A stretch of DNA of 19,786 nucleotides, from the IMG/VR virus record IMGVR_UViG_2721755712_000006; one strand, 5' to 3'. The position numbers and the translations under genes were made by a program. Below, one piece after another: positions 1,913 to 18,418 of the stretch. The notes beneath the pieces are model-generated. The model was not told the origin of the DNA, did not search any database, and saw nothing but the letters and a program-made list of their open reading frames with translations. Within the stretch, counting starts at the first letter, position 1. The number at the start of each line of letters is the position of its first letter. The stretch comes from a virus. Taxonomy: Duplodnaviria > Heunggongvirae > Uroviricota > Caudoviricetes.

Positions 1913-2890
1913 TCAATCGCTCCCTTTCCGCCCTTCAGCTACAGGGTCGTTGTCGGCGATAACAAAACCTAAGTCCTGAGAGAATCTCTCTCGTGGGAAT
2001 CCTTTAGCAGGTAAACCCATTGAATCATATCCACATCCGGGAACATTTGGTTTAGAGTCAATAAGGTCTGCAATTTGCCGAAGCCATGTTGATCCCGGAC
2101 CAAGTCGTTTAACTAAGTACCAGATAATACAGATCGCGCTAAAAATCCTCTCGCAACTCTCTGGATGGAGATTAAGTCCGTCAAAGTATTCATTATCCGG
2201 TACTGGAACTCGGGGATGCTTTCTATTCCATATTCTGGAATGGTGAGCGCAACGATTCCTTATGAGATTAAGGCACTTCAACCATTTTGCAAATGTCTGC
2301 TTATTATCAATGCCAAAACGACGTATAATTTTCCCCTGCATATGACCATTAAGCATCGCATAATATTTAGACATCTGACCAAAATCCCAGGTCTCCACCG
2401 CCACCCAAAATGGAATCTCCTTGCCTTGGCTTCGATGCCATTCAATACAGTCATCTCTGCTTTCGTCTAATTTTACTTTTTGCTTATACACCCAATGCTC
2501 GAAGGCAGATGAGAATTTTGGATTAATGTATTTTGATGACATGTAGGCAAGTGGATCATTGCGACCAACCTCATGCGCGATGACTGAACGAACATGAATC
2601 TCTATTCTTTCGATAGCATCAATCATCAAAAGACGCAGTTTTTTGTCAAAAAGATATAGATCGTACGTCTTCTCGAAACTGGTACCAGCAAGAAATCGGT
2701 CTGTTCTGTACGAAAGACCTTTATCTGTTGTCGCAATAATTCTTGATGGGTACCAAAAACCTGACAATCGATAATATCCAACCTGCGACAGCTTACGTAT
2801 CGCACGATTTCGATCATTGATAATCATGCCACGTTCAAGTAGCAATCCTAGCAATTCGTGATAGTCCTTATGAGGCTTTGCGGCAATCAT
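1913..2890 (-). CDS. Abi_2 family abortive infection protein (AbiD/AbiF-like)
   Basis: Contains the hallmark NRCAHHSRIWN motif plus YYRLSGFWYP near the N-terminus. ORF track starts at a GTG at 2935; ATG at 2890 (MIAAKPHKDYHELL...) fits family N-termini better. Neither start has a good SD. Confidence 0.7.
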   Translation of the reverse strand: MIAAKPHKDYHELLGLLLERGMIINDRNRAIRKLSQVGYYRLSGFWYPSRIIATTDKGLSYRTDRFLAGTSFEKTYDLYLFDKKLRLLMIDAIERIEIHVRSVIAHEVGRNDPLAYMSSKYINPKFSSAFEHWVYKQKVKLDESRDDCIEWHRSQGKEIPFWVAVETWDFGQMSKYYAMLNGHMQGKIIRRFGIDNKQTFAKWLKCLNLIRNRCAHHSRIWNRKHPRVPVPDNEYFDGLNLHPESCERIFSAICIIWYLVKRLGPGSTWLRQIADLIDSKPNVPGCGYDSMGLPAKGFPRERFSQDLGFVIADNDPVAEGRKGSD

Positions 2891-2986
2891 AGTGGCGAAA
2901 CAAAAGATAATAAAAGGCCCGACCGTGAAACTCACATGCCTGAAATCGGCGGCGGAGAAACAGAGGATCGGGCTCGGTTGCCTGTA

Positions 2987-3421: not shown

Positions 3422-3697
3422 GTGGCTTCTGTTTCTATCAGCTGTCCCTCCTGTTCAGCTACTGACGGGGTGGTGCGTAACGGCAAAAGCACCGCCGGAC
3501 ATCAGCGCTATCTCTGCTCTCACTGCCGTAAAACATGGCAACTGCAGTTCACTTACACCGCTTCTCAACCCGGTACGCACCAGAAAATCATTGATATGGC
3601 CATGAATGGCGTTGGATGCCGGGCAACTGCCCGCATTATGGGCGTTGGCCTCAACACGGTTTTACGTCACTTAAAAAACTCAGGCCGCAGTCGGTAA
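3422..3697 (+). CDS. insA: IS1 InsA
   Basis: 91-aa product [43 protein letters not shown]... matches IS1 InsA. Confidence 0.9.
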
Positions 3698-4119
3698 CCT
3701 CGCGCATACAACCGGGCAGTGATGTGATTGTCTGCGCGGAAATGGACGAACAGTGGGGCTACGTCGGTGCTAAATCACGTCAGCGCTGGCTGTTTTACGC
3801 GTATGACAGGATACGGAGGACAGTTGTGGCGCACGTTTTCGGTGAACGCACTCTGGCCACACTGGCGCGTCTTCTGAGCCTGCTGTCGGCCTTTGAGGTC
3901 GTGGTATGGATGACGGATGGCTGGCCGCTGTATGAATCACGCCTGAAGGGAAAGCTGCACGTTATCAGCAAGCGTTACACTCAGCGCATTGAGCGACATA
4001 ATCTGAATCTGAGACAACATCTGGCAAGGCTGGGACGGAAGTCACTGTCGTTCTCAAAATCGGTGGAGCTGCATGACAAGGTCATCGGGCATTATCTGAA
4101 CATAAAACACTATCAGTAA
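3616..4119 (+). CDS. insB: IS1 InsB (transposase InsAB' by -1 frameshift)
   Basis: 167-aa product [27 protein letters not shown]... matches IS1 InsB with several substitutions relative to the canonical sequence as I remember it. Confidence 0.85.
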
Positions 4120-5168: not shown

Positions 5169-7274
5169 TTATTGAGCTTCTTTTTGTGATGCCTGTGCGA
5201 CTCTGGTGAGCGATTGTGTGACCGTACTGATCGCTCTGTCATATGCTGTGCTACCTTTTGGCGTATTTGCCAGACGTAACAAGGCATTTCGTATAACAGG
5301 GCTTTCGTATGCCTTCGCTGCTCCGCCTACGGCACCAGCAGCAGGAACAACAAACGCAGCCGTTTTTAGCATCCCCGCTAATACTGCTGCGTTTATGATG
5401 CCACCACCAACTAACAATCCATAAAGCTGCTGACCATTTAAGTTTTGAACGTTCGCTTTTGCCGCGTGTCTTGTATCGTTGAGGTATTTAATAACGCCGT
5501 CCAGTTCCTTTCCATGTACGCCTTTAAAGAAAGTTGCTGATTGCTTCCTGTTCCGGTGTAACGCATTAATAAACTTCTCAACACTGATATTTCCAGACGG
5601 ATCAGTCGCCTTATCTACAGCATTCTGAACTATGGCTGCTCGTGCGTTTTGCCTACCATTGTCATCCAGAAGCCTGTAAAGCTGAGAACGTTCTGATGGG
5701 CTTTGGCTAAAAACGAGTTTTGTTACATCCTCAGGCGTGGCCTTGCCGCTGGCTATTGCCTTTTGAACGCGCGTTCTTCCCATCATGTCATTGAATTTAG
5801 ACCATGAGCGATCAACCCTTGCCATATTAATGGCTTCGTCTGCTCCAAGATTTTTGGCTACGGCTTTTTTCATATCCGCCGTATATGCCTTGTAGATAAT
5901 ATCGCTGGCTTTCTGGAGCGTATCTTTATCAACAGTGTCAGATGACGCCATAAATCGCTTTCGAAGATCGGTTCTGTTTTCCCTCGCCAGACGCAGGTCA
6001 TTTGGTCCGCTGGTGATATCGTCTTTAAATTGCTGCAAGACTTTTACCGCGGCTCTATCCTGAGATTTGCCCGGGCGGCTTAACACGGCAATCTGATTGT
6101 CGATAGCTTTTACCGTGTTTGAGAGATCGACAGGGGTATCCCCCATAGCGTCAATTATGCGGTTATATCGCTTTCCTGCTGCCTCAATGAATTTTTGTTG
6201 CCCTTTAGTCGCAGATTCATAAAGCTGTTTATCAGAAATGCCACCCAGACCATCGCTAAATGTTCTGACTAAATTTTCTCGTGCTTGTTGTTGATTCAGC
6301 CGATTCTTACCGGTTCCAAAAAAAGGAACTCTTTCGCCTAATGTCTGAGCCTGACTCTGCATAAAGGTTTTATCTTTCAGCATGTCACTGGTCATTAACG
6401 GCAGATTTCTTTCCGATGCAAAGTCGACAGCAGCCTTTGCTTCAGGCGACATATCACCACGAACAGCCCTCGAAACCGCACTCGCTGTATTTTCCAGCCC
6501 CTTACCAATACCACCAATGCCAGCAGAAATTACCGTTTGTAACGGATCAATATCTTCTCCACCAGCAAGGCTGGTGGCTCCCTGTAGTGCTAAATCTGTA
6601 GCTGCTGATTTTCCTATGGCACTAAGCACCGTTCCAGCCCTGCCCGCTGGTGTAAACGCCAACGCATTAGCAAGAAACGAGGTCAGGTCTTGCGGTGATA
6701 AACCCGGCTTGTTCAGGGCATAATCACCTGATGGCAGAGAAACGATAGTATTCCCCTTCTCATCCTGCCTTAATGTCGCCCCCATTCCCTGAAGAATCTT
6801 TTCCTGAGACGCGTCAGAGCCGAAAAGTTGAGACCATCCAGCCTTTAGGGCATCCATGCTTAGTGAGTTCAATTCTGGGGCAGAGGCGACATTTTGCAGT
6901 CTCTCCATCTCTGGAGTCATTCGGCTTTCGCCTGTTATAGCATCGCGCATCGCAGCCCCAAGACTGGCTCCCTGTTCTGCTGAACGCTCAAGCCCCTCTC
7001 TTTGCTGAGTAGCTAACTTTGCATACCCTGACGCAAGAGAATTATCAGATGATGTATGTTGAATATTTTGAGTTGCTGATTGGGATCGGTCTATTTCATT
7101 CGTTGATGGTAGTGGATAGGCAGCATAAAAAGCCTGCTTAGCCTGCTCTACACTTTCTCCGGCTTGCGGGGCCACGACTTCATTGAAGTATTGCTCCTGA
7201 GCCTGCGCTTTTTGTTCTGGTGCTAACGCCTGATACTGTGGAGAGGCGATAACATCTTTCCATGCTTTAGCCAT
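5169..7274 (-). CDS. Large hypothetical protein (701 aa), Ala/Gln/Gly/Ser-rich helical, C-terminal Gly/Ala-rich hydrophobic segment
   Basis: Long ORF; ATG overlaps the stop of the upstream gene (TAATG); GGGGTG SD. Hydrophobic segment LYGLLVGGGIINAAVLAGMLKTAAFVVPAAGAVGGAAKAY near residues 617-656. No family recognised. Confidence 0.7.
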   Translation of the reverse strand: MAKAWKDVIASPQYQALAPEQKAQAQEQYFNEVVAPQAGESVEQAKQAFYAAYPLPSTNEIDRSQSATQNIQHTSSDNSLASGYAKLATQQREGLERSAEQGASLGAAMRDAITGESRMTPEMERLQNVASAPELNSLSMDALKAGWSQLFGSDASQEKILQGMGATLRQDEKGNTIVSLPSGDYALNKPGLSPQDLTSFLANALAFTPAGRAGTVLSAIGKSAATDLALQGATSLAGGEDIDPLQTVISAGIGGIGKGLENTASAVSRAVRGDMSPEAKAAVDFASERNLPLMTSDMLKDKTFMQSQAQTLGERVPFFGTGKNRLNQQQARENLVRTFSDGLGGISDKQLYESATKGQQKFIEAAGKRYNRIIDAMGDTPVDLSNTVKAIDNQIAVLSRPGKSQDRAAVKVLQQFKDDITSGPNDLRLARENRTDLRKRFMASSDTVDKDTLQKASDIIYKAYTADMKKAVAKNLGADEAINMARVDRSWSKFNDMMGRTRVQKAIASGKATPEDVTKLVFSQSPSERSQLYRLLDDNGRQNARAAIVQNAVDKATDPSGNISVEKFINALHRNRKQSATFFKGVHGKELDGVIKYLNDTRHAAKANVQNLNGQQLYGLLVGGGIINAAVLAGMLKTAAFVVPAAGAVGGAAKAYESPVIRNALLRLANTPKGSTAYDRAISTVTQSLTRVAQASQKEAQ

Positions 7275-8740
7275 TAATCACCCCATAGTGAAGAAAAGTT
7301 ACTGCTGGCTGCTGGCTGTGATACCTGCTCAGATTGCGGCAATGTCTGCGACGAAGAAGCAGTTCCTCTGTCAACTGCTGAAATAACCCGCAAAGCATCA
7401 TAAGTTCGACCAGAAGCAGCTTTCAGCGAATTGAACTGGTTTTCCATCTTCCGGCGCTTGGTATCAATGGTTTTTGTGGAATCACCAGGCTGAGGGAAAT
7501 ACATTTGATAATATTTGGACATTTCAGCTGGTAGGATAGATGCCCCTGTTTCCTGACGGAGTATTGCCATTATTGCGTCATTAGCATTAACAACGTATTG
7601 CTGCTCTGCTGGGCTGAGCGTTAAGTTAGCCAGCGTCCCATTACCCAAAGCATTATTAATGATCGCCACTCGCTGTGGGCTAAGCTGGTCTTTCAGTGTA
7701 TCTATTGAATCAAGAGCATCCCTAACCCTGTATGCAAATCCAGCAGCTTTTTTAGCCCCTTCTGGCGACTTTTCCATGATCTTTTGGGCTGTTGGCAAAG
7801 CTATTGGACGAAACCCATCTCCAGATATTGGCTGGTTTAGTTTTCCCTGCTCTTCACTTCCGTCTGTGTAGTATTTTGTGACAGTGCCATCATCGTTTTC
7901 TCTAACACTCATTAATTTTTTGGCGTTTGTATTAATTCCAGCCGCTGCCGCAAATGCCGCCGCCCCCTCTGGATCCGCCTTTAACATTTGAGCGTACTGA
8001 TTGTAATTCTGCATTGCTGCTGTTGGTGCATATGCTGACGTTAACGCATTTGCTCGGCTAATATCCTGCCCTCTCGCCTGAAGTGCTTCGCCAGCCTGAT
8101 TGCTGCGGATTGTCTCTGCCAACTTGCCACGCTCAATATCCCGACCTTCCATTTGATCTTTGATATCGAAATACTTCTCATGACCGAGAGAAAACAGCGC
8201 CAGATTACCTGCGAAATGCTGGAAGCCCTGCGGGTCATTAACCTGCATTTCAGCAATAGTTTCTGGAGGGATACCTAAACGACGCATCTCCTGCTCATTA
8301 TCCATCATGAACCTGCCAAATGCGCCCTGACCAAGCGATGAGGCTACCTGTGCTTTGAGCGCCAGATTGCCATAATCATCCCTTTGAGCATCATCGACAT
8401 AACTCATCCCTTTACGGACTTCCTCAAACTCTTCTGGGAATGCTGTAATAAGATTACGCATCTGCTCCCTGTCACCGGACGCATAAGCATCTGCATAAGC
8501 TTTCTGGAATGCCGCTTTACGCTCCTGCTGTTGCTGCTGCTTATAAATATCAGCAACGCCAGCCAGACCACGAAGACCTGTCAGAGCAACGTTATTTGCA
8601 CCTGAGCGAGCCAGTTCATTGTTTTCGCGGATCAGACCAAGCGTTGCGTTAATGTCGCTTGCCTTTGGCGCATTCTCATTTTGCGTACCGATGCCAGCCA
8701 GAAAACCACCAGAATTAATACCCTGTTGCCACGTAGCCAT
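7274..8740 (-). CDS. Large hypothetical protein (~488 aa from ATG at 8740; 492 aa from GTG at 8752), low-complexity Ala/Gln-rich
   Basis: Long ORF translationally coupled to the 701-aa gene; poly-Gln run and Ala-rich tracts; no catalytic motif recognised. Confidence 0.7.
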   Translation of the reverse strand: MATWQQGINSGGFLAGIGTQNENAPKASDINATLGLIRENNELARSGANNVALTGLRGLAGVADIYKQQQQQERKAAFQKAYADAYASGDREQMRNLITAFPEEFEEVRKGMSYVDDAQRDDYGNLALKAQVASSLGQGAFGRFMMDNEQEMRRLGIPPETIAEMQVNDPQGFQHFAGNLALFSLGHEKYFDIKDQMEGRDIERGKLAETIRSNQAGEALQARGQDISRANALTSAYAPTAAMQNYNQYAQMLKADPEGAAAFAAAAGINTNAKKLMSVRENDDGTVTKYYTDGSEEQGKLNQPISGDGFRPIALPTAQKIMEKSPEGAKKAAGFAYRVRDALDSIDTLKDQLSPQRVAIINNALGNGTLANLTLSPAEQQYVVNANDAIMAILRQETGASILPAEMSKYYQMYFPQPGDSTKTIDTKRRKMENQFNSLKAASGRTYDALRVISAVDRGTASSSQTLPQSEQVSQPAASSNFSSLWGD

Positions 8741-8758
8741 TGATTTACCCACGTCCAG

Positions 8759-9789: not shown

Positions 9790-12546
9790 TCATTCTTCAG
9801 ATGAGTTGTAATCTCCTGGCTGGTAATTGAGTACATAAACGTTTATTTGTCGTCCCTGAATACGTGGTGATTTTCTTTGGTATCCACGACCGCTGTTTGG
9901 TGGGGTTAGCATCCCGGCTTTTTTCAACACTTCAGCAAACTGTTTTGCGTTGAAACCACATGCGATCTCCTTTTCAAATGTGGCCGGGAATGTGTAGAAA
10001 ATCATTGGGCTTTCGTCATGTTCTCCACGCTGACGGTATCCGGCTAAATCTTTGATGGGCAAATCTGCCGGGCTGTATGGAAATGGTGCAAAACGGCTAA
10101 GCCCATAGGCATTAAGAAATGCCTCCGTTTGTTCAATAATCTGCTGATGCTCTTTGTTACCTGTGCCGAACTCGCGCAACCATGCGTTATAGCTGTGCTG
10201 TATCGCATCACGGCATGTCTGAGCATCCCAGCCTGTTACAACCTCGCCTAACAACAATGCGGCCTCCAGAATGGCAAATCGCGCGGCTACACGGTGAACC
10301 TGCTCACCATAATCGGATGGGATCAGGCTTCTCCATCTGCTTTCGCAGTCACGAACAGTTTTAATAGCCTGTTGCTGGTGGTCTGCCAGCCATTTAATCC
10401 ACTCACGCCCGGACGCGCCGTGGTGATGCTGGTAAGCGTCTTTCAGTGCGTCTGCGTGCTGTTTTCCGTTCTGGTAATCGTGAAAGCGTACTGCTTTACT
10501 CAACGGAATATTCAGCAGTCGCACCATTTGCCCGGCTTTGGTTTTTCGCCCGGAAGTAGCGATAAATGTTTCTAAATCCATTTCTCCGGTGCTGATTGCC
10601 ACTGTACGCCAGCGTTTTAGATCCCGGTTTCCACCATCTTTAGCGCCTTGCAGTTTCCCTACACCGTTAAATAACGCATAGGCAGACTGTGAAACACTGA
10701 CAGGATCAGCGCCCTGACCAACTTCATCAAGCGGCATTAGTCCGTCATTGTGGGCGGCAGCTTCATTTGCCAGCCCCAGCGCGGTTCCGTACCACGTCAG
10801 CCGCAGTAAATCAGGGTTGCCGTATAAGCTGCTCGCCACGTTTGCCGTGGTGGTCTTACCTGCGCTCGACTGCTCATAGAAATGAATGCCGAACCCGTCA
10901 GCGCCCACCAGCCCAATCAATGGCGCTGCCAGTGCTGCGCCGATCCCGGTCATCATTGAATAGTTACCAAAGGCCAGACGCGCCACGTTATCACGCCAGC
11001 TTTTCGCGCTCCCTGAGACGGTATATCCGGCTGCGGCTGAGCTTCTCCCGCTGAACAGCACAGGATTTTCAGGTGTTCCGATGATTTCCCCATCAGGCAT
11101 GATGTACGCTCCGCATTGCCAGCCAGTGGCATGAGCAACACGCCACAATTCACGAGAGCCACTGCGTTGTAGCCAGTCTGCCAGTATTGCTCTGAGGCTG
11201 CTTTTGGTCGTGACATTTACCCCACCAGCTTTAAGTGTGCGCCATCCTTCACGTTCACCAATATCAGCCAGTGGAATGGCAGCGGTTGTCGGCGTTTCAG
11301 AACCAAACGACAGCCAGCGAAGAATGAGATACTGGTCTTTATCGTCTCTGCCAGTACCGATAACGCTTAACGGAGAACATAACCAGCTTTCGTTATTGAT
11401 GATTTCTCCACTCTGGCTGTCAGCTCTCGGAGATACCCAATAAATACCATCCTCGCGGCTTTCTATTCTTGGTTTCAGTGGGTCGGTATCCATAACCTTA
11501 AAATCGCTTCCCTCAATGGTCTGTGGCTCCTGTTTCACGCCATTACCCTGTGGTTGGTACATTGACTTATTGAACGCTTCTGTGGCGCATTTAATGCCGT
11601 GTTTTTGGTGGTAATCATTCCAGTCTGCTTTGTGATCTGTCGGGGGTAATGCCACCCATCCAGAAACAGATAAAGCTGCCTTTTCTGCTGCTATTCTCCC
11701 CGTGTTTTGTCTTCCTTCGCTGTGGTCGTTATCCGCAGCAATGATGATTTGTGCTGAAGGAAATTTATCCCGCAGTACCTGGGCGACATATAACAGGTTC
11801 CCGGCATCAATCGCCGCCACTGTCAGCGCCTCTGGACGAATTAAATGGGCAGATAATGCCGTTGCCAGCCCTTCTGCGATTAAGATGCTCTGTGTTGTTT
11901 CTGGTGCGTTTATGGCGTGATATGCCCCCCGCTTTGCTGAACCTGTCAGGAGTCTTTTTTCACCATGTGAGGTAATAGTCTGTGCTGCTGTTACTGCGCC
12001 GGATTTATCCACCAGCGCCAGCAACAGAGATCCATCGGGCAACACGGGGAATGTAAAATCACCTACCCCTTTCGCAACCAGATAATCAGATTTGCCGTTT
12101 ACAGCCTTTCTGCGCATGTCATCAAACTGACGGGAAAACGTATCCCGTCTTTGTTGTTCGTCCTTCTCTGCCCTTTTCAGGCGCTCCTGTTCGCGTCGCT
12201 GGCGCTCGGTTTCCAGTTGTTCCCGTTTCTGGCTGGTGGCTTCTGGTGTTTCCGTTGTCCGGTAATCAATACCCAGAACATCAGCGGCAAGAAGCGCCGC
12301 CTCTGTTGTGTCGCAGTTATTTACGCGTTTAATTAAATCCAGCCCATCACCAGCGCCGCACTGATTACAGATGAAGCTACCGCGCCCGTTGTCATCGAAC
12401 CGGAATCGATCTTTGCCCCCACATGCAGGGCAGGGAGCATGACGGCGCGGAGAGTCAGGGACATTTATGTTCAGGCAGCCCAGCACATGAGGCCAGTTGT
12501 TTTCAGACGCACTGATAACCTGACGGATAAGATCAATGTTTCGCAT
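9790..12546 (-). CDS. P4 alpha-like primase-helicase (Zn ribbon, TOPRIM, P-loop NTPase)
   Basis: 918 aa. Cys4 ribbon CPACGG...FICNQCG; TOPRIM-like IIIAADNDH with upstream ILIAEGLATALS; Walker A SSAGKTTT. Confidence 0.9.
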   Translation of the reverse strand: MRNIDLIRQVISASENNWPHVLGCLNINVPDSPRRHAPCPACGGKDRFRFDDNGRGSFICNQCGAGDGLDLIKRVNNCDTTEAALLAADVLGIDYRTTETPEATSQKREQLETERQRREQERLKRAEKDEQQRRDTFSRQFDDMRRKAVNGKSDYLVAKGVGDFTFPVLPDGSLLLALVDKSGAVTAAQTITSHGEKRLLTGSAKRGAYHAINAPETTQSILIAEGLATALSAHLIRPEALTVAAIDAGNLLYVAQVLRDKFPSAQIIIAADNDHSEGRQNTGRIAAEKAALSVSGWVALPPTDHKADWNDYHQKHGIKCATEAFNKSMYQPQGNGVKQEPQTIEGSDFKVMDTDPLKPRIESREDGIYWVSPRADSQSGEIINNESWLCSPLSVIGTGRDDKDQYLILRWLSFGSETPTTAAIPLADIGEREGWRTLKAGGVNVTTKSSLRAILADWLQRSGSRELWRVAHATGWQCGAYIMPDGEIIGTPENPVLFSGRSSAAAGYTVSGSAKSWRDNVARLAFGNYSMMTGIGAALAAPLIGLVGADGFGIHFYEQSSAGKTTTANVASSLYGNPDLLRLTWYGTALGLANEAAAHNDGLMPLDEVGQGADPVSVSQSAYALFNGVGKLQGAKDGGNRDLKRWRTVAISTGEMDLETFIATSGRKTKAGQMVRLLNIPLSKAVRFHDYQNGKQHADALKDAYQHHHGASGREWIKWLADHQQQAIKTVRDCESRWRSLIPSDYGEQVHRVAARFAILEAALLLGEVVTGWDAQTCRDAIQHSYNAWLREFGTGNKEHQQIIEQTEAFLNAYGLSRFAPFPYSPADLPIKDLAGYRQRGEHDESPMIFYTFPATFEKEIACGFNAKQFAEVLKKAGMLTPPNSGRGYQRKSPRIQGRQINVYVLNYQPGDYNSSEE

Positions 12547-12558
12547 TCTGGCCCCCGT

Positions 12559-13161
12559 TTAGTGCGTCACTGGTGCTTCTGGGATGCCGTTTTCGTTTAG
12601 TTCGGCAATAAAGCTGTTGTGAAGATCGGCAAGCACTTCTCGCCCAAACGAAGTGAGTGTTCCCTGTTCGACATCGAACATGTTGCTGTAAAAAATGATG
12701 GCATTCTTTGTTCCGACATCAACACCATATTTCTCGATCATTGCGCCCTCAATGTTGTTTGCCATAGCGAGGCGCTCTGCTACTGGATACAGCGGCATGG
12801 CGACGATGCCATTGGAATAAACAGAAACCACGGAATGATTGCCACTGTCATCAATAATGCTGACGGTGCCGTTTCCCTTTCTCATTTCATTGATGAATGC
12901 TGTTGCTATCAGCCAGCGCCACATAATCACGTGATGCTGTGATGTGTAATCGAAATATCCCTGGTTGCCGCCACTGGCAATAGCGAGATGTATAAACATG
13001 CCTTCATCTGGTTTATCGTCATAATCCCCGGCATCCAGACGATTTACGGCATCAATATATGAGACGGTCTCAACGCGTTCTGTCATGCCATCGTTGCTGC
13101 GGTGCATGATGTTTACGCCGTCAGGCGTTGCTTCTGCATGGAAGGTTAAGAAATTATTCAT
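12559..13161 (-). CDS. Hypothetical protein (~200 aa) immediately upstream of the primase
   Basis: ATG at 13161 (MNNFLTFHAEATPDG...) with GAGG SD, overlapping the stop of the upstream gene by 8 nt; the ORF track's longer 235-aa form begins inside the upstream gene. Confidence 0.55.
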   Translation of the reverse strand: MNNFLTFHAEATPDGVNIMHRSNDGMTERVETVSYIDAVNRLDAGDYDDKPDEGMFIHLAIASGGNQGYFDYTSQHHVIMWRWLIATAFINEMRKGNGTVSIIDDSGNHSVVSVYSNGIVAMPLYPVAERLAMANNIEGAMIEKYGVDVGTKNAIIFYSNMFDVEQGTLTSFGREVLADLHNSFIAELNENGIPEAPVTH

Positions 13162-13375
13162 GTTTCGCCTCGCCTGAATGATTCTGTAACTCATATTTGC
13201 CCAACAATTCGTCTGCTTCCTGAATAGCTTCTGGTACGCCATTGAGCAGTGACATAACCGCGCCAATCATTAACTTGTCTCTGTTGCTGGGGCTGGCCCC
13301 TTCAAGCCAGAACCCTAAAACAGTCTGAACCTGTTCGATGCGACATTGCGCTTCAATGAGCTGGATGTTGGTCAT
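13154..13375 (-). CDS. Small hypothetical protein (73 aa)
   Basis: ORF in an overlapping-stop/start chain (ATGA overlap at 13372..13375). Confidence 0.45.
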   Translation of the reverse strand: MTNIQLIEAQCRIEQVQTVLGFWLEGASPSNRDKLMIGAVMSLLNGVPEAIQEADELLGKYELQNHSGEAKHE

Positions 13376-13635
13376 TTCGCACTCTCCACATCGATTAAAC
13401 TGATATCTATCAGGGAGGTAACTTTTTGTAGCCAGCTATTGATTACTGTCGCCTGTTCCCCTCCCACCGAGGGAATAATCTCATTCATCACATGAACCAG
13501 ACCTGTGCGCGCTCTGGTAAGCCGTTCAGTCGCGCAATCTGCGGGAGTGAATGTGTCTGGATATGGCTCTTCGCGCCCCAGCAATGATTCAATTTCCAGC
13601 TCACACGGATGACGATAAATTAAGTTGATATTCAT
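13372..13635 (-). CDS. Small hypothetical protein (87 aa)
   Basis: ORF in the same coupled chain (ATGA overlap at 13632..13635). Confidence 0.45.
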   Translation of the reverse strand: MNINLIYRHPCELEIESLLGREEPYPDTFTPADCATERLTRARTGLVHVMNEIIPSVGGEQATVINSWLQKVTSLIDISLIDVESAK

Positions 13636-13826
13636 TTTTCACCCCCAAGAATTACCAGCTCGGCACGGGCATCGTTAACCAAAGATGAGCACGCTTTAAT
13701 CGCATCCACGACATCAGCAGCGTCCATTTCTTCAGCCGAAAGACTGACAGCAACCAGGACAGCCGCTGCTTGCTCGATTAATTGAAGTGCGGACGTAAGG
13801 CGAGGGGTATTAATTGAGTTATTCAT
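13632..13826 (-). CDS. Small hypothetical protein (64 aa)
   Basis: ORF in the same coupled chain; overlaps upstream gene by 8 nt. Confidence 0.4.
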   Translation of the reverse strand: MNNSINTPRLTSALQLIEQAAAVLVAVSLSAEEMDAADVVDAIKACSSLVNDARAELVILGGEK

Positions 13827-14037
13827 TGGTTGCCCCCGTTTTTACTGGCATTTCGCCACCTTCCAGCAGGAAATGAACGTCACGAACGGCGAGATCCAAT
13901 ATCGCGAGTAACGCCTTCAGTCTTTCGTCTCGTGAGGGAGAGTTGCTCACCAGAATGTCGTTAATCACTTCTGTCAGTGTGATGATCTGGCTTGTGCGTT
14001 CGAGGGGATCCATATGCACATCGTAGGTTTTAATCAT
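13819..14037 (-). CDS. Small hypothetical protein (72 aa)
   Basis: ATG at 14037 (MIKTYDVHMDPLER...) with GGAGGTGG SD; this is the 3' part of the long 13819..14886 track ORF. Confidence 0.4.
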   Translation of the reverse strand: MIKTYDVHMDPLERTSQIITLTEVINDILVSNSPSRDERLKALLAILDLAVRDVHFLLEGGEMPVKTGATNE

Positions 14038-14224
14038 GTGCCACCTCCATGCGGATACGACCAGCAAAAAAGCAGACGTGATCGCGCACCAGAGAACGGC
14101 GAGCATCGCGTTCAGACTCGGCAGCAATATGATGAATTTTGGCGGTAATTGTCGGGCAATCGCGGCGAACTGCGGCGATAATCCAGATAAATTGCGGTTT
14201 TTGGGTAGGGGTAGTAGCCAGCAT
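14030..14224 (-). CDS. Small hypothetical protein (64 aa), first ORF after the structured leader
   Basis: ATG at 14224 (MLATTPTQKPQF...) preceded by GGAGG, which lies inside a predicted stem. Confidence 0.35.
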   Translation of the reverse strand: MLATTPTQKPQFIWIIAAVRRDCPTITAKIHHIAAESERDARRSLVRDHVCFFAGRIRMEVAHD

Positions 14225-14470
14225 GTGGCAGCCTCCATTCGATAGCATGTAACGCTACCACCGGAAACGCCAATTTCGCTGGTGGTAGCCCAGACAGGGT
14301 TGGCGTAACCGGCTCGAATGGATACCGGCGCTTCCGAAGAAGCCCCTGCCTGAGCCACCATTGATTGACAAAGGCGCTGGATTATACACCAACGCCCAAA
14401 AAATGGGTGAGTCAGACCTACGACATAAAAAAAGACGCTCGGCGCGTCATATGTCGCCATTCGATTTACC
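14225..14470 (-). promoter_or_regulatory. Structured non-coding leader with three mutually complementary 8-9 nt elements (P4 immunity-like topology)
   Basis: Plus-strand TCCATTCGA at 14234..14242, its reverse complement TCGAATGGA at 14314..14322, and a direct copy CCATTCGAT at 14457..14465; nested inner inverted repeat GCTACCACC (14254..14262) / GGTGGTAGC (14281..14289). Confidence 0.35.
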
Positions 14471-14524
14471 AGGACGCCAATCCCGGCACCCGTTTTATGA
14501 GGTGCCTTATAACCATAAACCGTG

Positions 14525-14551
14525 TTGCCGCATAACGGCAAGCTCTTTTTT
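14525..14551 (+). terminator. Hairpin plus T6 on the plus strand (possible terminator or part of the leader structure)
   Basis: ttgccg-cataa-cggcaa, then gctc, then tttttt; no obvious plus-strand gene upstream, so its role is uncertain. Confidence 0.25.
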
Positions 14552-14879
14552 ATGGACTCCGAAAACTCACTATTGGAAGAACCAGAAGCACAGTACATCG
14601 CGCTCATTTCGTTAACGTCACGCGCGTGGACGAATGTTTTTGTGGAGTCACTACACGAGCAGAACAGGTCATCTACGACCAGAAATTCTCTGGCGCAGCC
14701 GCTGACCTTCTCAACGCTAACATCATCGACCGTGATTTCTGACATAGTTAAGGCATCCGCTCCTACCACCAGCAAATGATAAACTTTGCTTGTATCTGCT
14801 GTATTAATGCCTGACTTTGCTGTCATATTGCTGGATTTTGGCGACATGCCAGCCAGTGAAAATGTCTTCTTCTGGGCGG

Positions 14880-15062
14880 TTAGCATTTGTTAACCTCCGC
14901 GAACTCCTTCATGAAACGTGCCAGCGGTTGTACGCATGGCGATTGATACCCGTCGCGATAAAACGTCACTCGGTTGTGAGACACGCTTTCGACAGTAACG
15001 AGTGCTCCGTGGGCATCTTTGTAGCGTTTTTGAGGTTGTGGTGTTCCTGTCGGCTTAAACAT
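14880..15062 (-). CDS. Small hypothetical protein (60 aa)
   Basis: ATG at 15062 (MFKPTGTPQPQKRYKDAHG...) with GGAGG SD 6 nt upstream; 8-nt overlap with the antirepressor gene stop. Confidence 0.4.
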   Translation of the reverse strand: MFKPTGTPQPQKRYKDAHGALVTVESVSHNRVTFYRDGYQSPCVQPLARFMKEFAEVNKC

Positions 15063-15888
15063 GGACCGCCTCCAGACGCTTAGCGAGCCAGCGTTGCGAC
15101 AGGCGGGTGAGTTCTCCTTTGCGCTGCTCATATTCCATGCCCATATCAATTAACGTGATATTGGTGCTTTCGAGATATGAGAGGTGCTCAAGCTGTTCTG
15201 CGTTCATATGGTCGCGAGGTTCGCCAGAATAGCCATTTATCCGCGCCCACTGCTTAGCAGTTAGCCCACCAAGAACGATACGAGAAATCATATTGCTCTC
15301 GTTTGTGTAGTGGTGTTGCTGCGTCGTTTTCCCCATCTCGGCACGGGCCATGTTCAGCGCATCGCACATTGGCTTAAAGTTGTTTGCGGCACTGATACGG
15401 GCTTTTAGCTGGCGACGATAGCGGGCGGCGATTTCAGGCACGCTACGCTGTAATTCTTTCTCGCACTGGATGAAATAACGGCGGATAGCGCGACCCTGAT
15501 CATTGCGTTCGATCATTGCCAGTTCTTTCGCCATTCCGACACTTAACAGATAGTCTTTGCCGGGTCTGCCAGAGTGCTTAATCTTGCTGTAAGCCGCGCC
15601 ATTCGGGCTTTTCCCCAAATTTGGGGAAATTGTTTTATGGACTGAGTAATCGTGCCCAATGGTGAAGTCATATTCAGAGATGCGATCAGTGATCCATGTA
15701 GAGAAGTCTTTTCCCACGCCCAACGCTTTGTGTAACGCTTTTGCGCTAACAATATTGGTTTCACGCCCACCTATATGACCAGGAATAACCGGGACAATTG
15801 CGGCAAATTCATTACCGTTAATTGTGCCCAGAGAGGCGTTCAGATGAGGGGCAGCCTCAGAAATTAATCTGCTTTTTTCGATGTTCAT
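15055..15888 (-). CDS. AntA/AntB-type phage antirepressor-like protein
   Basis: 277 aa; segments SAKALHKALGVGKDFSTWITDRISEYDF and KDYLLSVGMAKELAMIERNDQGRAIRRYFIQCEKEL resemble the AntA domain as I recall it; GGAG SD. Confidence 0.65.
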   Translation of the reverse strand: MNIEKSRLISEAAPHLNASLGTINGNEFAAIVPVIPGHIGGRETNIVSAKALHKALGVGKDFSTWITDRISEYDFTIGHDYSVHKTISPNLGKSPNGAAYSKIKHSGRPGKDYLLSVGMAKELAMIERNDQGRAIRRYFIQCEKELQRSVPEIAARYRRQLKARISAANNFKPMCDALNMARAEMGKTTQQHHYTNESNMISRIVLGGLTAKQWARINGYSGEPRDHMNAEQLEHLSYLESTNITLIDMGMEYEQRKGELTRLSQRWLAKRLEAVHV

Positions 15889-15900
15889 TTTCAGTCTCCG

Positions 15901-16332
15901 TTAGGCGGCGTTAAACGCGTCCGGGTAGAGTTTCAGAATGTCGGCAATTTCCTGCTGAGAAAGTCCGTTGTGATCATTTATGTTCGCAAGATGGTTAATA
16001 TGAGTGATCACTTTCAGAACATCACCACGGCAGGAGAAACGGTAGCGAAGGTGTGTTCCGATACCATCAGGATTCTTTTCGTCGATACGCTCCAGAGTGA
16101 TTCCGAGCTGGCGTTCTAACTCTGTTGCATAGTTACGACCAGAAGACAGACGGCAGTAGCGAAGAATGTCATTTTCTGTCCATCCCTCTATACCAGTACG
16201 CAGCATATAGACTCGGGCACGATGCTTTTTCGGCGTGCGCTTTGGTGCTTGAAGGGATTTTGTCAGGGGCGTAACATCAGATACGCGAATATCTGAATTA
16301 GCCGCCTGTAATGGGCGGTTTTTCTTTTCCAT
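15901..16332 (-). CDS. Hypothetical protein (143 aa), translationally coupled to alpA
   Basis: ATG overlaps the alpA stop (ATGA); basic N-terminus; no family recognised. Confidence 0.5.
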   Translation of the reverse strand: MEKKNRPLQAANSDIRVSDVTPLTKSLQAPKRTPKKHRARVYMLRTGIEGWTENDILRYCRLSSGRNYATELERQLGITLERIDEKNPDGIGTHLRYRFSCRGDVLKVITHINHLANINDHNGLSQQEIADILKLYPDAFNAA

Positions 16333-16535
16333 CAGGCCACCTCGTCTCTAGATTCTAATATACACTTCTCAATCCATTCATCTATTTCAGACTCAACAAA
16401 AGCAATTGCCCGACTTCCAATTTTTACCTGTTTAGGGAACCTCCCCTGACTAATAAGACGATAAATCCATGCTTTGCTATAACCAGTTCGCCTTTGAACT
16501 TCAGAGAGACGAATTAATGAATTGTAATTAGCCAT
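16332..16535 (-). CDS. alpA: AlpA-family phage regulatory / excisionase-like HTH protein
   Basis: 67 aa; LIRLSEVQRRTGYSKAWIYRLISQGRFPKQVKIGSRAIAFVESEIDEWI is a typical AlpA pattern. Confidence 0.85.
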   Translation of the reverse strand: MANYNSLIRLSEVQRRTGYSKAWIYRLISQGRFPKQVKIGSRAIAFVESEIDEWIEKCILESRDEVA

Positions 16536-16962: not shown

Positions 16963-18177
16963 TCATGCGTGTTTTTCAAACACCATATGCACCACATTTC
17001 CGCCATGCTCGAGAGAATCCATATAGTCGGCATACCATTGAAGCATCTCCCGCCGTCCATCCAGATATTGCGCATGGTTGTATGTGCCACGAATTGAGTT
17101 CTTATCAACGTGAGCGAGCTGCGTTTCTATCCACGCGGTGTTATAGCCCTGCTCATGCAAAATCGTGCTCATAGTGTGTCGGAACCCATGACCAGTTACA
17201 CGTCCAGCGTAGCCAATGCGCTTAAACACTTGGTTTATGCTGGCCTCACTCATTGTTTTCCTTGGATCATTGCGCCCGGGAAACATAAGAGGGTAATTGC
17301 CTGTTATTTCTCTAATCTTCCCAATAAGCGAAAGAGCCTGCTCAGACAATGGCACAATATGAGGCCGCCGCATTTTCATACGTGAAGCGGGTATCTCCCA
17401 TATAGCCTTGTTGAAATCAATTTCATCCCATAATGCGCCACGTAGTTCGCCAGTTCGCAAGCCGGTGATAATCAGTAGGCGAGCCGCCATAACAACCAAT
17501 GCGCTTCCTGAGTAACTGGATAATGCCTTGAAAAAATCAGGTAATTCTTTGGTCGTAAGGAAAGGGTAATGATTAGATTCATGGCCTTGCATCGCGCTAG
17601 TAAGGTCTGGTGCAGGGTTATACTCTGCGCGACCAGTGACTATTGCATAGCGGAAAACTTCCCCGCACCGCTGCCTCACTTTTTTGGCTTTTTCTGTCGC
17701 ACCGCGCCCCTCGATGCGCCGCAGCACATTCAGAAGTTCAAGTGGTTTGATTTCGGCGATTGGTTTTTTGCCAATGTAAGGGAACACATCTTTGTTGAAG
17801 GCTTCGAGGATGTCTGAAGCATAACCAGCAGACCATTTTTTTAATTTGCTGCTGTGCCACTCAAGGGCAATATCTTTGAAGGTGTTGTTTAACTGCGTTT
17901 CCCGGGCAATCTTTTCCTCTCGTTTCGCTTCCATCGGATCGATACCACCAGCGATACCTCTTTTCGCATCTTCACGTTTTGCCCGAGCATCGGCTAGAGT
18001 AACCTCAGGATACACACCTAGTGCCAATAGCTTCTCTTTACCTGCTACACGATATTTAAGTCGCCAGTATTTACCTCCATTAGGTTTTACCAAGAGATAC
18101 AAACCGCCACCATCGGCCAGCTTGTAAGCCTTCTCTTTTGGCTTGGCTGTGTCTATTTGACGGGCATTGAGTTTCAC
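16963..18177 (-). CDS. P4-type tyrosine integrase (site-specific recombinase)
   Basis: 404 aa; N-terminal arm-binding region LYLLVKPNGGKYWRLKYR; C-terminal catalytic region with HGFRHT and final Tyr region; GTG start with GGAGG SD; adjacent to the tRNA. Confidence 0.9.
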   Translation of the reverse strand: MKLNARQIDTAKPKEKAYKLADGGGLYLLVKPNGGKYWRLKYRVAGKEKLLALGVYPEVTLADARAKREDAKRGIAGGIDPMEAKREEKIARETQLNNTFKDIALEWHSSKLKKWSAGYASDILEAFNKDVFPYIGKKPIAEIKPLELLNVLRRIEGRGATEKAKKVRQRCGEVFRYAIVTGRAEYNPAPDLTSAMQGHESNHYPFLTTKELPDFFKALSSYSGSALVVMAARLLIITGLRTGELRGALWDEIDFNKAIWEIPASRMKMRRPHIVPLSEQALSLIGKIREITGNYPLMFPGRNDPRKTMSEASINQVFKRIGYAGRVTGHGFRHTMSTILHEQGYNTAWIETQLAHVDKNSIRGTYNHAQYLDGRREMLQWYADYMDSLEHGGNVVHMVFEKHA

Positions 18178-18342: not shown

Positions 18343-18418
18343 TGGTGCCGATAATAGGAGTCGAACCTACGACCTTCGCATTACGAATGCGCTGCTCTAC
18401 CAACTGAGCTATATCGGC
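18343..18418 (-). tRNA. thrW: tRNA-Thr (anticodon CGU)
   Basis: Reverse complement reads GCCGATATAGCTCAGTTGGTAGAGCAGCGCATTCGTAATGCGAAGGTCGTAGGTTCGACTCCTATTATCGGCACCA: 76 nt with encoded CCA and a GGTTCGA T-loop. Confidence 0.95.

What the first reader, a model, noticed from the sequence alone, without database searches (positions are those of the whole stretch)
14225..14470. Leader with three mutually complementary elements that can sequester the downstream ribosome-binding site
On the minus-strand transcript, a central element (UCCAUUCGA, rc of 14314..14322) is complementary to both an upstream copy (rc of 14457..14465) and a downstream copy (rc of 14234..14242). The downstream copy overlaps the GGAGG SD of the first small ORF, and a 9-bp inner stem lies between the central and downstream elements. 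The A-B-C layout, with B complementary to both A and C, matches as I recall it the seqA/seqB/seqC arrangement of P4 RNA-based immunity, placed as in P4 upstream of the operon ending in the primase gene.
Basis: partly seen in the sequence, partly recalled or inferred. Interest (0 to 1): 0.55.

Follow-up and report, generated by a model that had tools for sequence, protein, structure and literature searches.

The report
P4-type RNA immunity leader (CI/C4 + IsrK)
This is an ordinary, already described phage-satellite "RNA immunity" switch, homologous to the one in satellite phage P4, in which a small antisense RNA pairs with matching sites before and after its own gene and most likely keeps the element's replication genes off.

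Summary
On the minus strand, UCCAUUCGA (14322..14314) is complementary to a downstream copy (14242..14234, 9 bp, overlapping the GGAGG SD) and an upstream copy (14464..14457, 8 bp). A triple like this arises in 9 of 5000 shuffles.

The P4 interpretation is supported.
- **RNA gene:** the central element lies in a hairpin loop of an Rfam C4 antisense RNA (RF01695, 79.5 bits, threshold 45), the family that also matches the P4 cI region where the literature places CI RNA.
- **Upstream target:** the upstream copy lies in an isrK-like RNA (RF01394, 67.1 bits), the P4 seqA homologue, which ends in an intrinsic terminator.
- **Same layout in P4:** P4 has the same elements in the same order, with different complementary sequences.
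- **Covariation:** 90 related loci fall into 14 classes of the central sequence. The exact 8-mer complement lies upstream in 82 and downstream in 76. With another class's sequence the counts are 6 and 1 of 1170.

The first ORF is Kil/Icd-like, and the operon ends in a primase whose N-terminal half resembles P4 alpha. This leader family occurs in 2870 of 5426 E. coli genomes. It is an already known kind and of low interest.

The parts
14512..14541 (-). Candidate constitutive promoter, homologous in position to P4 PLE: -35 TTGCCG 14541..14536, 18-nt spacer, -10 TATGGT 14517..14512. The presumed start is near 14505.
   Evidence: It aligns with P4 TTGCCT-18-TATAGT, and the -10 columns are nearly invariant in 29 loci. 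It matches only 8 of 12 consensus positions, so the promoter scan did not list it. Activity is inferred, not shown.
14428..14505 (-). IsrK-like / P4 seqA-type leader RNA: two hairpins, a single-stranded linker, an intrinsic terminator and a U tract.
   Evidence: Rfam RF01394 isrK, 67.1 bits against a gathering score of 50. P4 gives the same hit at the homologous place. The literature equates IsrK with P4 seqA RNA (PMC3632133, PMC4825925).
14474..14480 (-). a1: UUGGCGU in the loop of isrK hairpin 2, the upstream target of C4 segment a'.
   Evidence: Found. In 29 loci the helix is 100% paired and 6 of 7 pairs change on both sides.
   Evidence: An exact complement of the locus's own seqB is present upstream in 82 of 90 loci, against 6 of 1170 with a foreign seqB.
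14427..14448 (-). Intrinsic terminator of the isrK-like RNA, at the position of P4 t1: GACGC-GCCGA-GCGUC plus U7.
   Evidence: Listed by the terminator scan and matches the terminator hairpin of the isrK model. The identification with P4 t1 rests on my recollection of Briani et al. 2000.
14278..14365 (-). C4 / P4 CI-type antisense RNA gene. It has a 17-bp outer stem (14360..14344 with 14299..14283), hairpin 1 (14343..14330, UUCG loop) and hairpin 2 (stem 14329..14325 with 14312..14308).
   Evidence: Rfam RF01695 C4, 79.5 bits against a gathering score of 45, full-length match. The MFE fold has the same outer stem and two hairpins, at -47.2 kcal/mol and z = -5.8. It is 71% identical to the P4 cI region.
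It has a constant CC followed by a 6-nt variable core.
   Evidence: Fourteen variants of the 6-nt core occur among 90 loci.
14300..14306 (-). a': ACGCCAA in the single-stranded junction between hairpin 2 and the 3' strand of the outer stem.
   Evidence: P4 has UUCUCAC here, with GUGAGAA at both targets.
14254..14289 (-). Its loop carries a2, UUGGCGU 14273..14267. Its 5' strand overlaps the 3' strand of the C4 outer stem by 7 nt. It is a possible counterpart of P4 terminator t4.
   Evidence: 97.3% of cells are paired in 29 loci and 4 pairs change on both sides. a':a2 is 100% paired. The t4 assignment is an inference from position only.
It overlaps the SD GGAGG at 14236..14232.
   Evidence: An exact complement lies 62-66 nt downstream of seqB in 76 of 90 loci, against 1 of 1170 with a foreign seqB.
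14030..14224 (-). First ORF of the operon, Kil/Icd-like, 64 aa (ATG 14224, stop 14032..14030). Its 5' part (14221..14131) is C-rich and G-poor, resembling a Rho loading site.
   Evidence: 44% identity to the 65-aa P4 ORF at the kil position, E = 4e-11. RefSeq names the homologues 'host cell division inhibitor Icd-like protein'. C is 33-36%, G is 15-17% and C/G exceeds 2.
13819..14886 (-). Long eta/ash-like ORF (355 aa) read through the promoter, the isrK-like RNA, C4 and seqC. Its start overlaps the stop of the upstream DUF4222 gene.
   Evidence: Pfam Phage_ASH on residues 124-232, which is 14517..14191. RefSeq annotates it as 'ash family protein'. An open frame spans the leader in 69 of 72 related loci, and the six spacer lengths all differ by multiples of 3. 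The role of P4 eta is as summarised in PMC10111431.
9790..14037 (-). Remainder of the controlled operon: four small ORFs (14037..13819, 13826..13632, 13635..13372, 13375..13154), a 235-aa ORF (13266..12559) and a primase-helicase (12546..9790).
   Evidence: The ORFs are contiguous or overlapping on the same strand. The primase has Zn_Ribbon_Prim, Toprim_3 and DUF927 domains. Its N-terminal 359 aa are 33% identical to P4 alpha.

Best explanation
The region is the immunity (lysogeny-maintenance) control region of a P4-type satellite or island integrated at tRNA-Thr thrW. It uses the P4 CI / P1 c4 antisense-RNA mechanism.

Shown here from sequence and comparison:
- A weak promoter that aligns with P4 PLE lies just before an isrK/seqA-type RNA.
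- That RNA carries two target segments, a1 (UUGGCGU) and b1 (UCGAAUGG), and ends in an intrinsic terminator.
- About 60 nt further on lies a C4/CI-type RNA. It exposes b' (CCAUUCGA) in a hairpin loop and a' (ACGCCAA) in a single-stranded junction.
- Immediately downstream, a second copy of the targets follows. a2 sits in the loop of a 9-bp hairpin, and b2 overlaps the Shine-Dalgarno of a Kil/Icd-like ORF. That ORF heads the operon ending in the primase.
- All four pairings covary across many relatives, so selection acts on complementarity rather than on the sequences themselves.

Inferred from the experimentally studied homologues P4, P1 and Gifsy-1:
- Read-through transcripts are processed into a stable CI-like RNA of about 80 nt, with RNase P cutting the 5' end.
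- The RNA's pairing with a1/b1 enhances termination at the isrK terminator, which autoregulates the RNA.
- Its pairing with a2/b2 blocks the kil ribosome-binding site.
- The untranslated, C-rich start of kil then allows premature termination (Rho-dependent or at the 9-bp hairpin), so the primase operon stays silent.
- Transcripts that start further upstream, in the alpA-antA operon, are translated through the leader as the eta/ash-like ORF. This would override termination and switch replication on.

The 6-nt core of b' and the 7-nt a' would set the immunity specificity. On that basis this element should be heteroimmune to P4.
For: - **Rfam:** C4 79.5 bits (gathering 45) at 14278..14365 and isrK 67.1 bits (gathering 50) at 14428..14505, both on the minus strand.
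- **P4:** the same two hits occur in the same order, with compensatory seqA/B/C sequences.
- **b element:** among 90 unique C4-like loci in 14 seqB classes, the exact 8-mer complement lies upstream in 82, downstream in 76 and on both sides in 72. With a foreign seqB the counts are 6, 1 and 0 of 1170.
- **a element:** this helix was not used to select loci. It is 100% paired in 29 loci, 6 of 7 pairs change on both sides, no shuffle of 500 reaches the observed score, and slid controls pair at 36-48%.
- **9-bp hairpin:** 97% paired with 4 covarying pairs.
- **Chance:** an 8-mer triple arises in 9 of 5000 shuffles.
- **Terminator:** a hairpin plus U7 follows b1.
- **Genes:** the first ORF is 44% identical to the P4 ORF at the kil position and is annotated Icd-like in RefSeq. 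The primase N-terminal domain is homologous to P4 alpha.
- **Rho:** a C-rich, G-poor stretch lies at the start of kil.
- **eta:** the spanning reading frame is conserved and indels preserve the frame. Pfam Phage_ASH matches it.
- **Literature:** IsrK is equated with seqA RNA and C4 with CI RNA in P4-like prophages (PMC3632133, PMC4825925). C4/isrK hits and the eta/kil mechanism are summarised for satellites (PMC10111431). CI and C4 are listed as RNase P substrates (PMC5499578).
Against: - No expression, processing or termination data exist for this locus. Every functional step is carried over from homologues.
- The PLE-like promoter matches only 8 of 12 consensus positions and was not called by the scan.
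- The b1:b' and b':b2 helices in alignment A1 are paired by construction, because the loci were chosen for having both copies. Only the unselected counts and the a helices are unbiased.
- The helicase part of the primase (DUF927) differs from P4 alpha, and no sid/delta/psu homologue was identified in the window. The element is therefore not a canonical P4.
- Equilibrium folding of the whole leader predicts cis pairing of a1b1 with a'b' and a local helix over the SD. A purely trans mechanism is therefore not the only possibility.
Confidence: 0.9

Rival explanations
1. The region is a purely cis-acting attenuator. Within one transcript B pairs with A or with C, alternative structures decide whether the kil RBS is open, and no processed trans-acting RNA is needed.
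For: The MFE and partition function of the full leader pair a1:a' and b1:b' in cis with probability about 0.9. They also place the SD in a local helix with UUUCC at 14267..14263. The anti-SD CUCC/UUCC is conserved in most of the 29 loci.
Against: B lies inside a full-length C4-family fold that folds very stably on its own (-47 kcal/mol, z = -5.8). In P4 and P1 the homologous RNA is a processed, trans-acting immunity factor that confers superinfection immunity (literature cited in PMC4825925 and PMC5499578). Cis b':b2 pairing has negligible predicted probability (2e-5). The SD:anti-SD helix shows no covariation. Cis effects may add to trans action but are unlikely to replace it.
Confidence: 0.06
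2. The region is a Gifsy-1-type activating switch. The short IsrK-like RNA acts in trans to open a translationally inactive long mRNA and turn on the first ORF, and so acts mainly as an activator or anti-antisense RNA rather than as part of an immunity repressor.
For: The upstream RNA is a full isrK family match with its own terminator. In Gifsy-1, IsrK activates orf45/anrP translation by remodelling the long transcript (PMC4825925). Because a1b1 has the same sequence as a2b2, the short RNA could titrate the C4-like RNA. A local SD-sequestering fold is predicted.
Against: The architecture here is the P4 one: a Kil/Icd-like first ORF, a spanning eta/ash ORF and a primase operon. It is not the lambdoid isrK-orf45-antirepressor layout. 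The related loci with a short A-to-B spacing that lack the spanning ORF form a separate group. The two roles are not mutually exclusive, since a decoy role for the seqA RNA could coexist with CI immunity.
Confidence: 0.1
3. The conserved feature is simply a protein gene (the 'ash family protein', a Bro-network regulator), and the complementary elements are by-products of its coding sequence.
For: A 355-aa ORF spans the region and matches Pfam Phage_ASH at E = 2.8e-30. RefSeq annotates it as a protein. The frame is open in 69 of 72 relatives.
Against: The variable a and b segments change the encoded amino acids freely while complementarity is kept at 96-100% through double-sided changes. That is a constraint on RNA, not on protein. 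Two covariance models score well above threshold. What is conserved is an open frame, which fits 'translation through the leader' as reported for P4 eta (PMC10111431) better than a folded protein domain.
Confidence: 0.02

Closest known systems
Satellite phage P4 immunity region (PLE - seqA/t1 - cI[seqB] - seqC - kil/eta - ... - alpha)
   Same: - The order and spacing of all elements match.
- Both give Rfam isrK and C4 hits.
- seqB sits in the hairpin-2 loop, and seqC overlaps GGAGG 7-8 nt before the kil ATG.
- Both have the 9-bp hairpin between cI and seqC, with covarying sequence.
- Both have a Kil-like ORF (44% identity), a spanning eta/Ash ORF and a homologous primase N-terminal domain at the end of the operon.
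   Different: - The specificity sequences differ: CCAUUCGA and ACGCCAA here, against CCUGUGAA and UUCUCAC in P4.
- The t1-to-C4 spacer is 45 nt shorter.
- kil is out of frame with the eta-like ORF, because the SD-to-ATG spacing is 1 nt shorter.
- The helicase part of the primase is DUF927-type.
- The island carries antA, DUF4222, P22-type ejection genes, Abi_2 and PerC rather than an identified sid/delta/psu set.
Phage P1/P7 immI: c4 antisense RNA with targets a1 b1 (upstream) and a2 b2 (downstream) controlling icd-ant
   Same: - Same Rfam family (C4, RF01695).
- The antisense RNA has two recognition segments (a', b'), each with an upstream and a downstream target.
- The downstream target covers the RBS of an Icd-like ORF whose translation is needed for downstream expression.
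- The P1 details are from my knowledge of Citron and Schuster, and the Rfam family c4-a1b1 describes the upstream targets.
   Different: - The downstream cargo is a replication (primase) operon, not an antirepressor.
- The window's upstream module scores only 17.9 bits on c4-a1b1 (gathering 46.7) but passes isrK.
Salmonella Gifsy-1 IsrK - STnc1160 - orf45 - anrP locus
   Same: - An IsrK-family RNA with its own terminator is followed by a processed stable RNA that shares complementarity with it, then a small ORF whose RBS is structurally controlled (PMC4825925).
- The authors themselves call IsrK a structural homologue of P4 seqA RNA.
   Different: - That locus is in a lambdoid prophage, and its output is antirepressor/antiterminator expression and growth arrest.
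- IsrK is shown there to act as an activator in trans.
- No spanning eta-like ORF was seen in the lambdoid-type loci examined here.
C4/isrK-containing Bro zones of Gram-negative PICIs and helper-embedded PICIs (PMC10111431)
   Same: The int - alpA - Bro-network genes (AntA, Phage_ASH) - primase layout matches, with C4 and isrK Rfam hits inside the Ash gene.
   Different: I did not test whether this island belongs to any PICI clade defined in that paper.

Membership tests
Rfam C4 antisense RNA (RF01695; includes P4 CI and P1/P7 c4) | Covariance-model score at or above the curated gathering threshold over the full model. | tested here: met
   79.5 bits against 45, model positions 1-87 of 87, at 14365..14278 (-). 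P4 itself scores 74.9.
Rfam C4 antisense RNA (RF01695; includes P4 CI and P1/P7 c4) | Long outer stem enclosing two hairpins, with the recognition sequence exposed in the loop of hairpin 2. | tested here: met
   The independent MFE fold gives the same outer stem and two hairpins, at -47.2 kcal/mol and z = -5.8. In the Rfam consensus structure, UCCAUUCGA lies in the 12-nt loop of hairpin 2. The MFE closes two extra pairs inside that loop.
Rfam isrK (RF01394; P4 seqA-type RNA) | Covariance-model score at or above the gathering threshold, ending in an intrinsic terminator. | tested here: met
   67.1 bits against 50, model positions 1-77 of 77, at 14505..14428 (-). The terminator hairpin plus U7 is also found by the scan.
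P4-type CI RNA immunity system | seqB in the RNA is complementary to an upstream seqA and a downstream seqC, and the complementarity is kept when the sequences differ between elements. | tested here: met
   The window has 8 bp with A and 9 bp with C. Window and P4 show a triple compensatory change. Among 90 loci, 82 have the upstream copy and 76 the downstream copy, against 6 and 1 of 1170 with a foreign seqB.
P4-type CI RNA immunity system | seqC overlaps the ribosome-binding site of the first translated gene (kil), which is homologous to P4 Kil. | tested here: met
   b2 at 14242..14234 overlaps GGAGG at 14236..14232, and the ATG is at 14224. The ORF is 44% identical to the P4 ORF at the kil position, E = 4e-11.
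P4-type CI RNA immunity system | A long eta ORF spans the promoter, seqA, cI and seqC, is coupled to the upstream gene, and has kil nested in frame. | tested here: inconclusive
   A spanning ORF with a Phage_ASH match is present, and its start overlaps the upstream gene. In this lineage, however, kil is out of frame with it (14 of 76 loci). Translation was not tested.
P4-type CI RNA immunity system | The control region lies upstream of the replication operon that ends in the alpha primase, in an integrase-bearing satellite. | tested here: met
   The order is int 18177..16963, alpA 16535..16332, the leader, small ORFs, then primase 12546..9790, all on the minus strand. The primase N-terminal domain is 33% identical to P4 alpha, but the C-terminal helicase is not homologous.
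P4-type CI RNA immunity system | A stable small RNA is produced by processing (RNase P at the 5' end) and acts in trans to cause premature termination and superinfection immunity. | not testable with these tools
   This needs Northern blots or RNA-seq and genetics. There is only indirect support: family membership, and a C-rich, G-poor stretch after the kil start.
P1/P7 c4-type two-site antisense control (a'/b' with a1b1 and a2b2) | There are two separate recognition segments in the RNA, each with an upstream and a downstream complementary target in the same order. | tested here: met
   a' ACGCCAA (14306..14300) matches UUGGCGU at 14480..14474 and at 14273..14267. These helices are 100% paired in 29 loci, and 6 of 7 pairs change on both sides.
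Rfam c4-a1b1 (RF03163) | Score at or above the gathering threshold. | tested here: not met
   17.9 bits against 46.7 at 14518..14466. P4 scores 44.1, also just below. The isrK model describes this region better.

The most novel reading that the evidence does not exclude
The most novel reading not excluded has two parts.

1. The two recognition segments (the 6-nt core of b' and the 7-nt a') form a combinatorial two-module specificity code. The modules assort independently among satellites: for example, seqB CCAUUGAG occurs with six or more different a' sequences. This could let up to 8 related elements coexist in one E. coli genome without cross-repression.

2. A chain of mutually exclusive helices links folding of the antisense RNA, in cis, to closure of the kil RBS. 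The chain runs from the C4 outer stem, to the 9-bp hairpin, to a GGUAGC/GCUAUC hairpin plus a conserved anti-SD. In that case repression would not depend on trans-acting RNA alone.
Probability: 0.2. Interest if true: 0.35.

Novelty: already known. Interest (0 to 1): 0.15.

Why it matters
The finding has practical value rather than conceptual value.

- **Annotation:** the locus is a typical case where genome annotation shows only an 'ash family protein' and an 'Icd-like protein'. The functional units are two small RNAs and their four target sites.
- **Prediction:** the a'/b' sequences probably set the immunity type of the satellite. Reading them could predict which co-resident or incoming P4-like elements would be cross-immune.
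- **Specificity:** the comparison across 90 loci shows that complementarity, not sequence, is conserved.

None of this changes the current understanding of the mechanism.

Tried and rejected
- **Ash ORF as an artefact.** I first suspected that the 355-aa 'ash' ORF and Pfam Phage_ASH were artefacts of translating a conserved RNA region. I rejected this as stated. P4 eta is reported to be translated (PMC10111431), the frame is open in 69 of 72 relatives, and all six spacer lengths differ by multiples of 3. The constraint does appear to be on an open frame rather than on the amino-acid sequence.
- **kil out of frame with eta.** I considered whether this shift and the resulting long fusion ORF were a meaningful novelty. 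I rejected it, because the same alternative frame is also open across kil in P4 itself for 159 codons.
- **RNAcofold/duplexfold.** Folding C4 with its targets was uninformative, because loop-loop (kissing) pairing cannot be modelled. Only the simple helix energies are usable: -10 to -11.9 kcal/mol for b and -9.3 for a.
- **Genome-wide pattern scan.** The 16-base pattern scan of genome contigs gave mostly chance hits in GC-rich genomes. Across the two scans together, 130 of 244 matches had neither flanking copy. The viral-contig scan was much richer in true loci.
- **Foreign-a' control.** This control (73 of 1059) is inflated, because different junction strings share the same 7-mer. I rely instead.
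- **Local SD:anti-SD fold.** Overall pairing in 29 loci is 75%, against 73% in shuffles, with no covariation in the core. It is kept only as a lead.
- **Primary P4 papers.** Sabbattini 1995 and Forti 1999 are not in the held library. The details on t1, t4 and timm rest on secondary summaries and my own recollection.

Full report
**1. The observation**

On the minus strand the central element UCCAUUCGA occupies 14322..14314.
- The downstream copy UCGAAUGGA (14242..14234) is a perfect 9-nt complement. It overlaps GGAGG (14236..14232), which lies 7 nt before the ATG at 14224.
- The upstream copy UCGAAUGG (14464..14457) gives 8 contiguous pairs.

TCGAATGG or its complement occurs only three times in the 19.8-kb window, all of them here. 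The 9-bp stem GCUACCACC (14289..14281) with GGUGGUAGC (14262..14254) is also present. In 5000 dinucleotide shuffles of the 326-nt leader, an 8-mer flanked on both sides by its reverse complement arose 9 times.

**2. What it is**

An Rfam scan at curated thresholds gives three hits in the window.
- C4 antisense RNA (RF01695) at 14365..14278 (-): 79.5 bits, gathering 45, full length.
- isrK (RF01394) at 14505..14428 (-): 67.1 bits, gathering 50, full length.
- A tRNA at 18418..18346 (-), which I read as tRNA-Thr(CGU).

The upstream copy lies in the single-stranded linker of the isrK-like RNA, 8 nt before its terminator hairpin and U7 tract. That terminator is also found by the terminator scan.

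BLASTN links 14203..14364 to the P4 cI region at 71% identity. P4's own region gives the same two Rfam hits in the same order. Its seqA is UUCACAGG, its seqB CCUGUGAA and its seqC UUCACAGGAGG, at the homologous positions. Window and P4 therefore differ by a triple compensatory change in an otherwise colinear architecture.

The literature states the equivalence explicitly. [quoted passage not shown] IsrK is 'a structural homolog' of P4 seqA RNA (PMC4825925). C4 and isrK profiles hit the Bro/Ash genes of satellites (PMC10111431).

**3. Comparative test**

Scanning genome and viral contig collections for GCCGGTATCC-N6-GCCGGT gave 90 unique loci whose flanks resemble the C4 gene. They fall into 14 classes of the 6-nt core.
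- The exact 8-mer complement of each locus's own seqB lies within 330 nt upstream in 82 of 90, within 200 nt downstream in 76 of 90, and on both sides in 72 of 90.
- With another class's seqB the counts are 6, 1 and 0 of 1170.
- The downstream copy lies 58-66 nt after the C4 hairpin. In the P4-like loci (62-66 nt) it reads NNNNNNGGAGG, overlapping an SD.

In an alignment of 29 loci (A1) the helices are 96-100% paired, and 12 of 15 pairs change on both sides. There is a caveat. The loci in A1 were chosen for having both b copies, so only the unselected counts are unbiased for the b helices.

**4.

The C4 junction segment ACGCCAA (14306..14300) is complementary to UUGGCGU in two places: the loop of isrK hairpin 2 (14480..14474), and the loop of the 9-bp hairpin (14273..14267).
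- P4 has UUCUCAC with GUGAGAA at the same three places. Other loci have UUUCCAC/GUGGAAA, UUCCUAC/GUAGGAA, CUGCAAA/UUUGCAG and others.
- This helix was not used to select loci. It is 100% paired in 29 loci, and 6 of 7 pairs change on both sides. It is present on both sides in 86 of 90 loci.

The layout is therefore the two-site arrangement a1 b1 – c4(b' a') – a2 b2 known from P1/P7 c4. The P1 details are from my own knowledge, and Rfam has a c4-a1b1 family. The a and b modules assort independently among loci.

**5. The 9-bp stem**

The stem is 97% paired in 29 loci, with 4 covarying pairs, and it displays a2 in its loop. Its 5' strand shares 7 nt (14289..14283) with the 3' strand of the C4 outer stem. 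It can therefore form only in transcripts where the base of the C4 fold is open. By position it may correspond to P4 terminator t4. As I recall from Briani et al. 2000, t4 lies between cI and timm. This is an inference only.

**6. Coding context**

- The first ORF (14224..14030, 64 aa) is 44% identical to the 65-aa P4 ORF at the kil position. RefSeq names the homologues 'host cell division inhibitor Icd-like'.
- It heads a tight minus-strand operon of small ORFs that ends in a 918-aa primase-helicase. The N-terminal 359 aa of that protein are 33% identical to P4 alpha. Its helicase part is DUF927-type and differs from P4 alpha.
- The first 90 nt of the kil-like ORF are C-rich and G-poor (C/G above 2). 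This is the composition expected of a Rho loading site that would be exposed if kil is not translated.

The whole leader also lies inside a 355-aa ORF (14886..13819). That ORF matches Pfam Phage_ASH over exactly the isrK-to-seqC segment and is annotated 'ash family protein'. I first took this for an artefact. However, P4 eta, the ORF spanning PLE, seqA, cI and seqC, is reported to be translated from upstream transcripts and to suppress termination (Forti 1999, as summarised in PMC10111431). In relatives, an open frame spans the leader in 69 of 72 loci, and all six spacer lengths differ by multiples of three.

In the window lineage, kil is out of frame with this ORF because the SD-to-ATG spacing is 1 nt shorter (14 of 76 loci). 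The same alternative frame is open in P4 too, so I attach no significance to this.

**7. Mechanism**

Shown here: the elements, their order, their complementarity and its covariation, the terminator, and the homology of kil and of the primase N-terminal domain.

Inferred from P4, P1 and Gifsy-1:
- Transcription starts at a PLE-like promoter (TTGCCG-18-TATGGT, 14541..14512). It matches only 8 of 12 consensus positions and was not called by the scan.
- Transcription partly terminates at the isrK terminator.
- Read-through RNA is processed into a CI-like RNA. CI and C4 are RNase P substrates (PMC5499578).
- The RNA's pairing with a1/b1 autoregulates its own synthesis.
- Its pairing with a2/b2 occludes the kil RBS and causes premature termination before the primase genes.
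- Translation of the eta/ash frame from upstream alpA-antA transcripts overrides this block.

Equilibrium folding of the whole leader predicts cis a1b1:a'b' pairing (probability about 0.9) and a local helix over the SD. The anti-SD is conserved but does not covary. Cis contributions therefore remain possible.

**8. Comparison and novelty**

The locus meets the curated thresholds of two Rfam families. It matches P4 feature by feature apart from the specificity sequences, the spacer length and the kil/eta frame. It belongs to a leader family found in 2870 of 5426 complete E. coli genomes, with up to 8 copies per genome, and 135 records are at least 99% identical to this one.

The host context is proA – tRNA-Thr – int, which I recognise as the E. 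coli thrW site, in an island that also carries alpA, antA, P22-type ejection genes, IS1, Abi_2 and PerC.

Interest is low.

Noticed in passing
window 14300..14306, 14474..14480, 14267..14273 (minus strand): There is a second covarying complementary triple, a' ACGCCAA with two UUGGCGU targets. One target sits in the loop of isrK hairpin 2 and the other in the loop of the 9-bp hairpin. This gives a P1-type two-site a1b1 - c4 - a2b2 layout.
   Followed up: yes
window 14263..14267 with 14232..14236; 14252..14260 with 14240..14248 (minus strand): The predicted local fold pairs the SD GGAGG with UUUCC (CUCC in most relatives). It also pairs GGUAGCGUU with AUGCUAUCG. This would close the kil RBS in cis once the C4 fold has taken up the shared strand. 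The anti-SD is conserved but shows no covariation.
   Followed up: partly
window 14381..14386 (minus strand): A perfect TATAAT lies between the isrK terminator and the C4 gene. It is conserved in the window-type subgroup (L123, L132, L138, L141 and others) and absent from P4. No convincing -35 is present. It might be a second promoter for the C4-like RNA.
   Followed up: no
window 13819..14886 (minus strand): The 355-aa 'ash family protein' ORF is composite. It comprises an N-terminal part, the Ash segment that overlies the two RNA genes, an out-of-frame passage across the kil-like ORF, and an in-frame join to the next small gene (ATG 14037). The RNA genes are not annotated in RefSeq.
   Followed up: partly
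window 18346..18418, 16963..18177, 16332..16535, 15055..15888: The island is integrated next to tRNA-Thr(CGU), which I recognise as thrW, downstream of proA. It carries a tyrosine integrase, an AlpA-type regulator, a 143-aa ORF with no family match and an AntA-domain protein. All are on the minus strand upstream of the leader.
   Followed up: partly
window 7274..8752, 5169..7274, 3616..4119, 1913..2935, 896..1183: Beyond the primase, the island carries a P22-injectosome-type protein (Inj_translocase), a 701-aa ORF with no family match, an IS1 transposase, an Abi_2 abortive-infection protein and a PerC-family activator. This is a mixed cargo that is not typical of canonical P4.
   Followed up: no
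loci L139, L152, L167, L171, L184, L187, L217, L239 (viral contigs): This subgroup has a short A-to-B spacing (94-99 nt). It lacks the spanning eta-like ORF. Where the downstream copy was found (L167, L184, L239), it is followed by a longer first ORF (about 233-235 aa), not a 64-aa kil. It is probably the lambdoid isrK/antirepressor type rather than the P4 type.
   Followed up: no
locus L079 (Pseudovibrio sp. Ad37, 5339-5360): A pattern match in an alphaproteobacterium also has exact complements of its own loop sequence (CCUUACGA), 89 nt upstream and 58 nt downstream next to an ATG. This suggests that C4-type control extends well outside the Enterobacterales.
   Followed up: no
E. coli genomes: Homologues of this leader occur up to 8 times per genome, and 320 places are on plasmids. 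I did not examine whether co-resident copies carry different a'/b' specificities.
   Followed up: no
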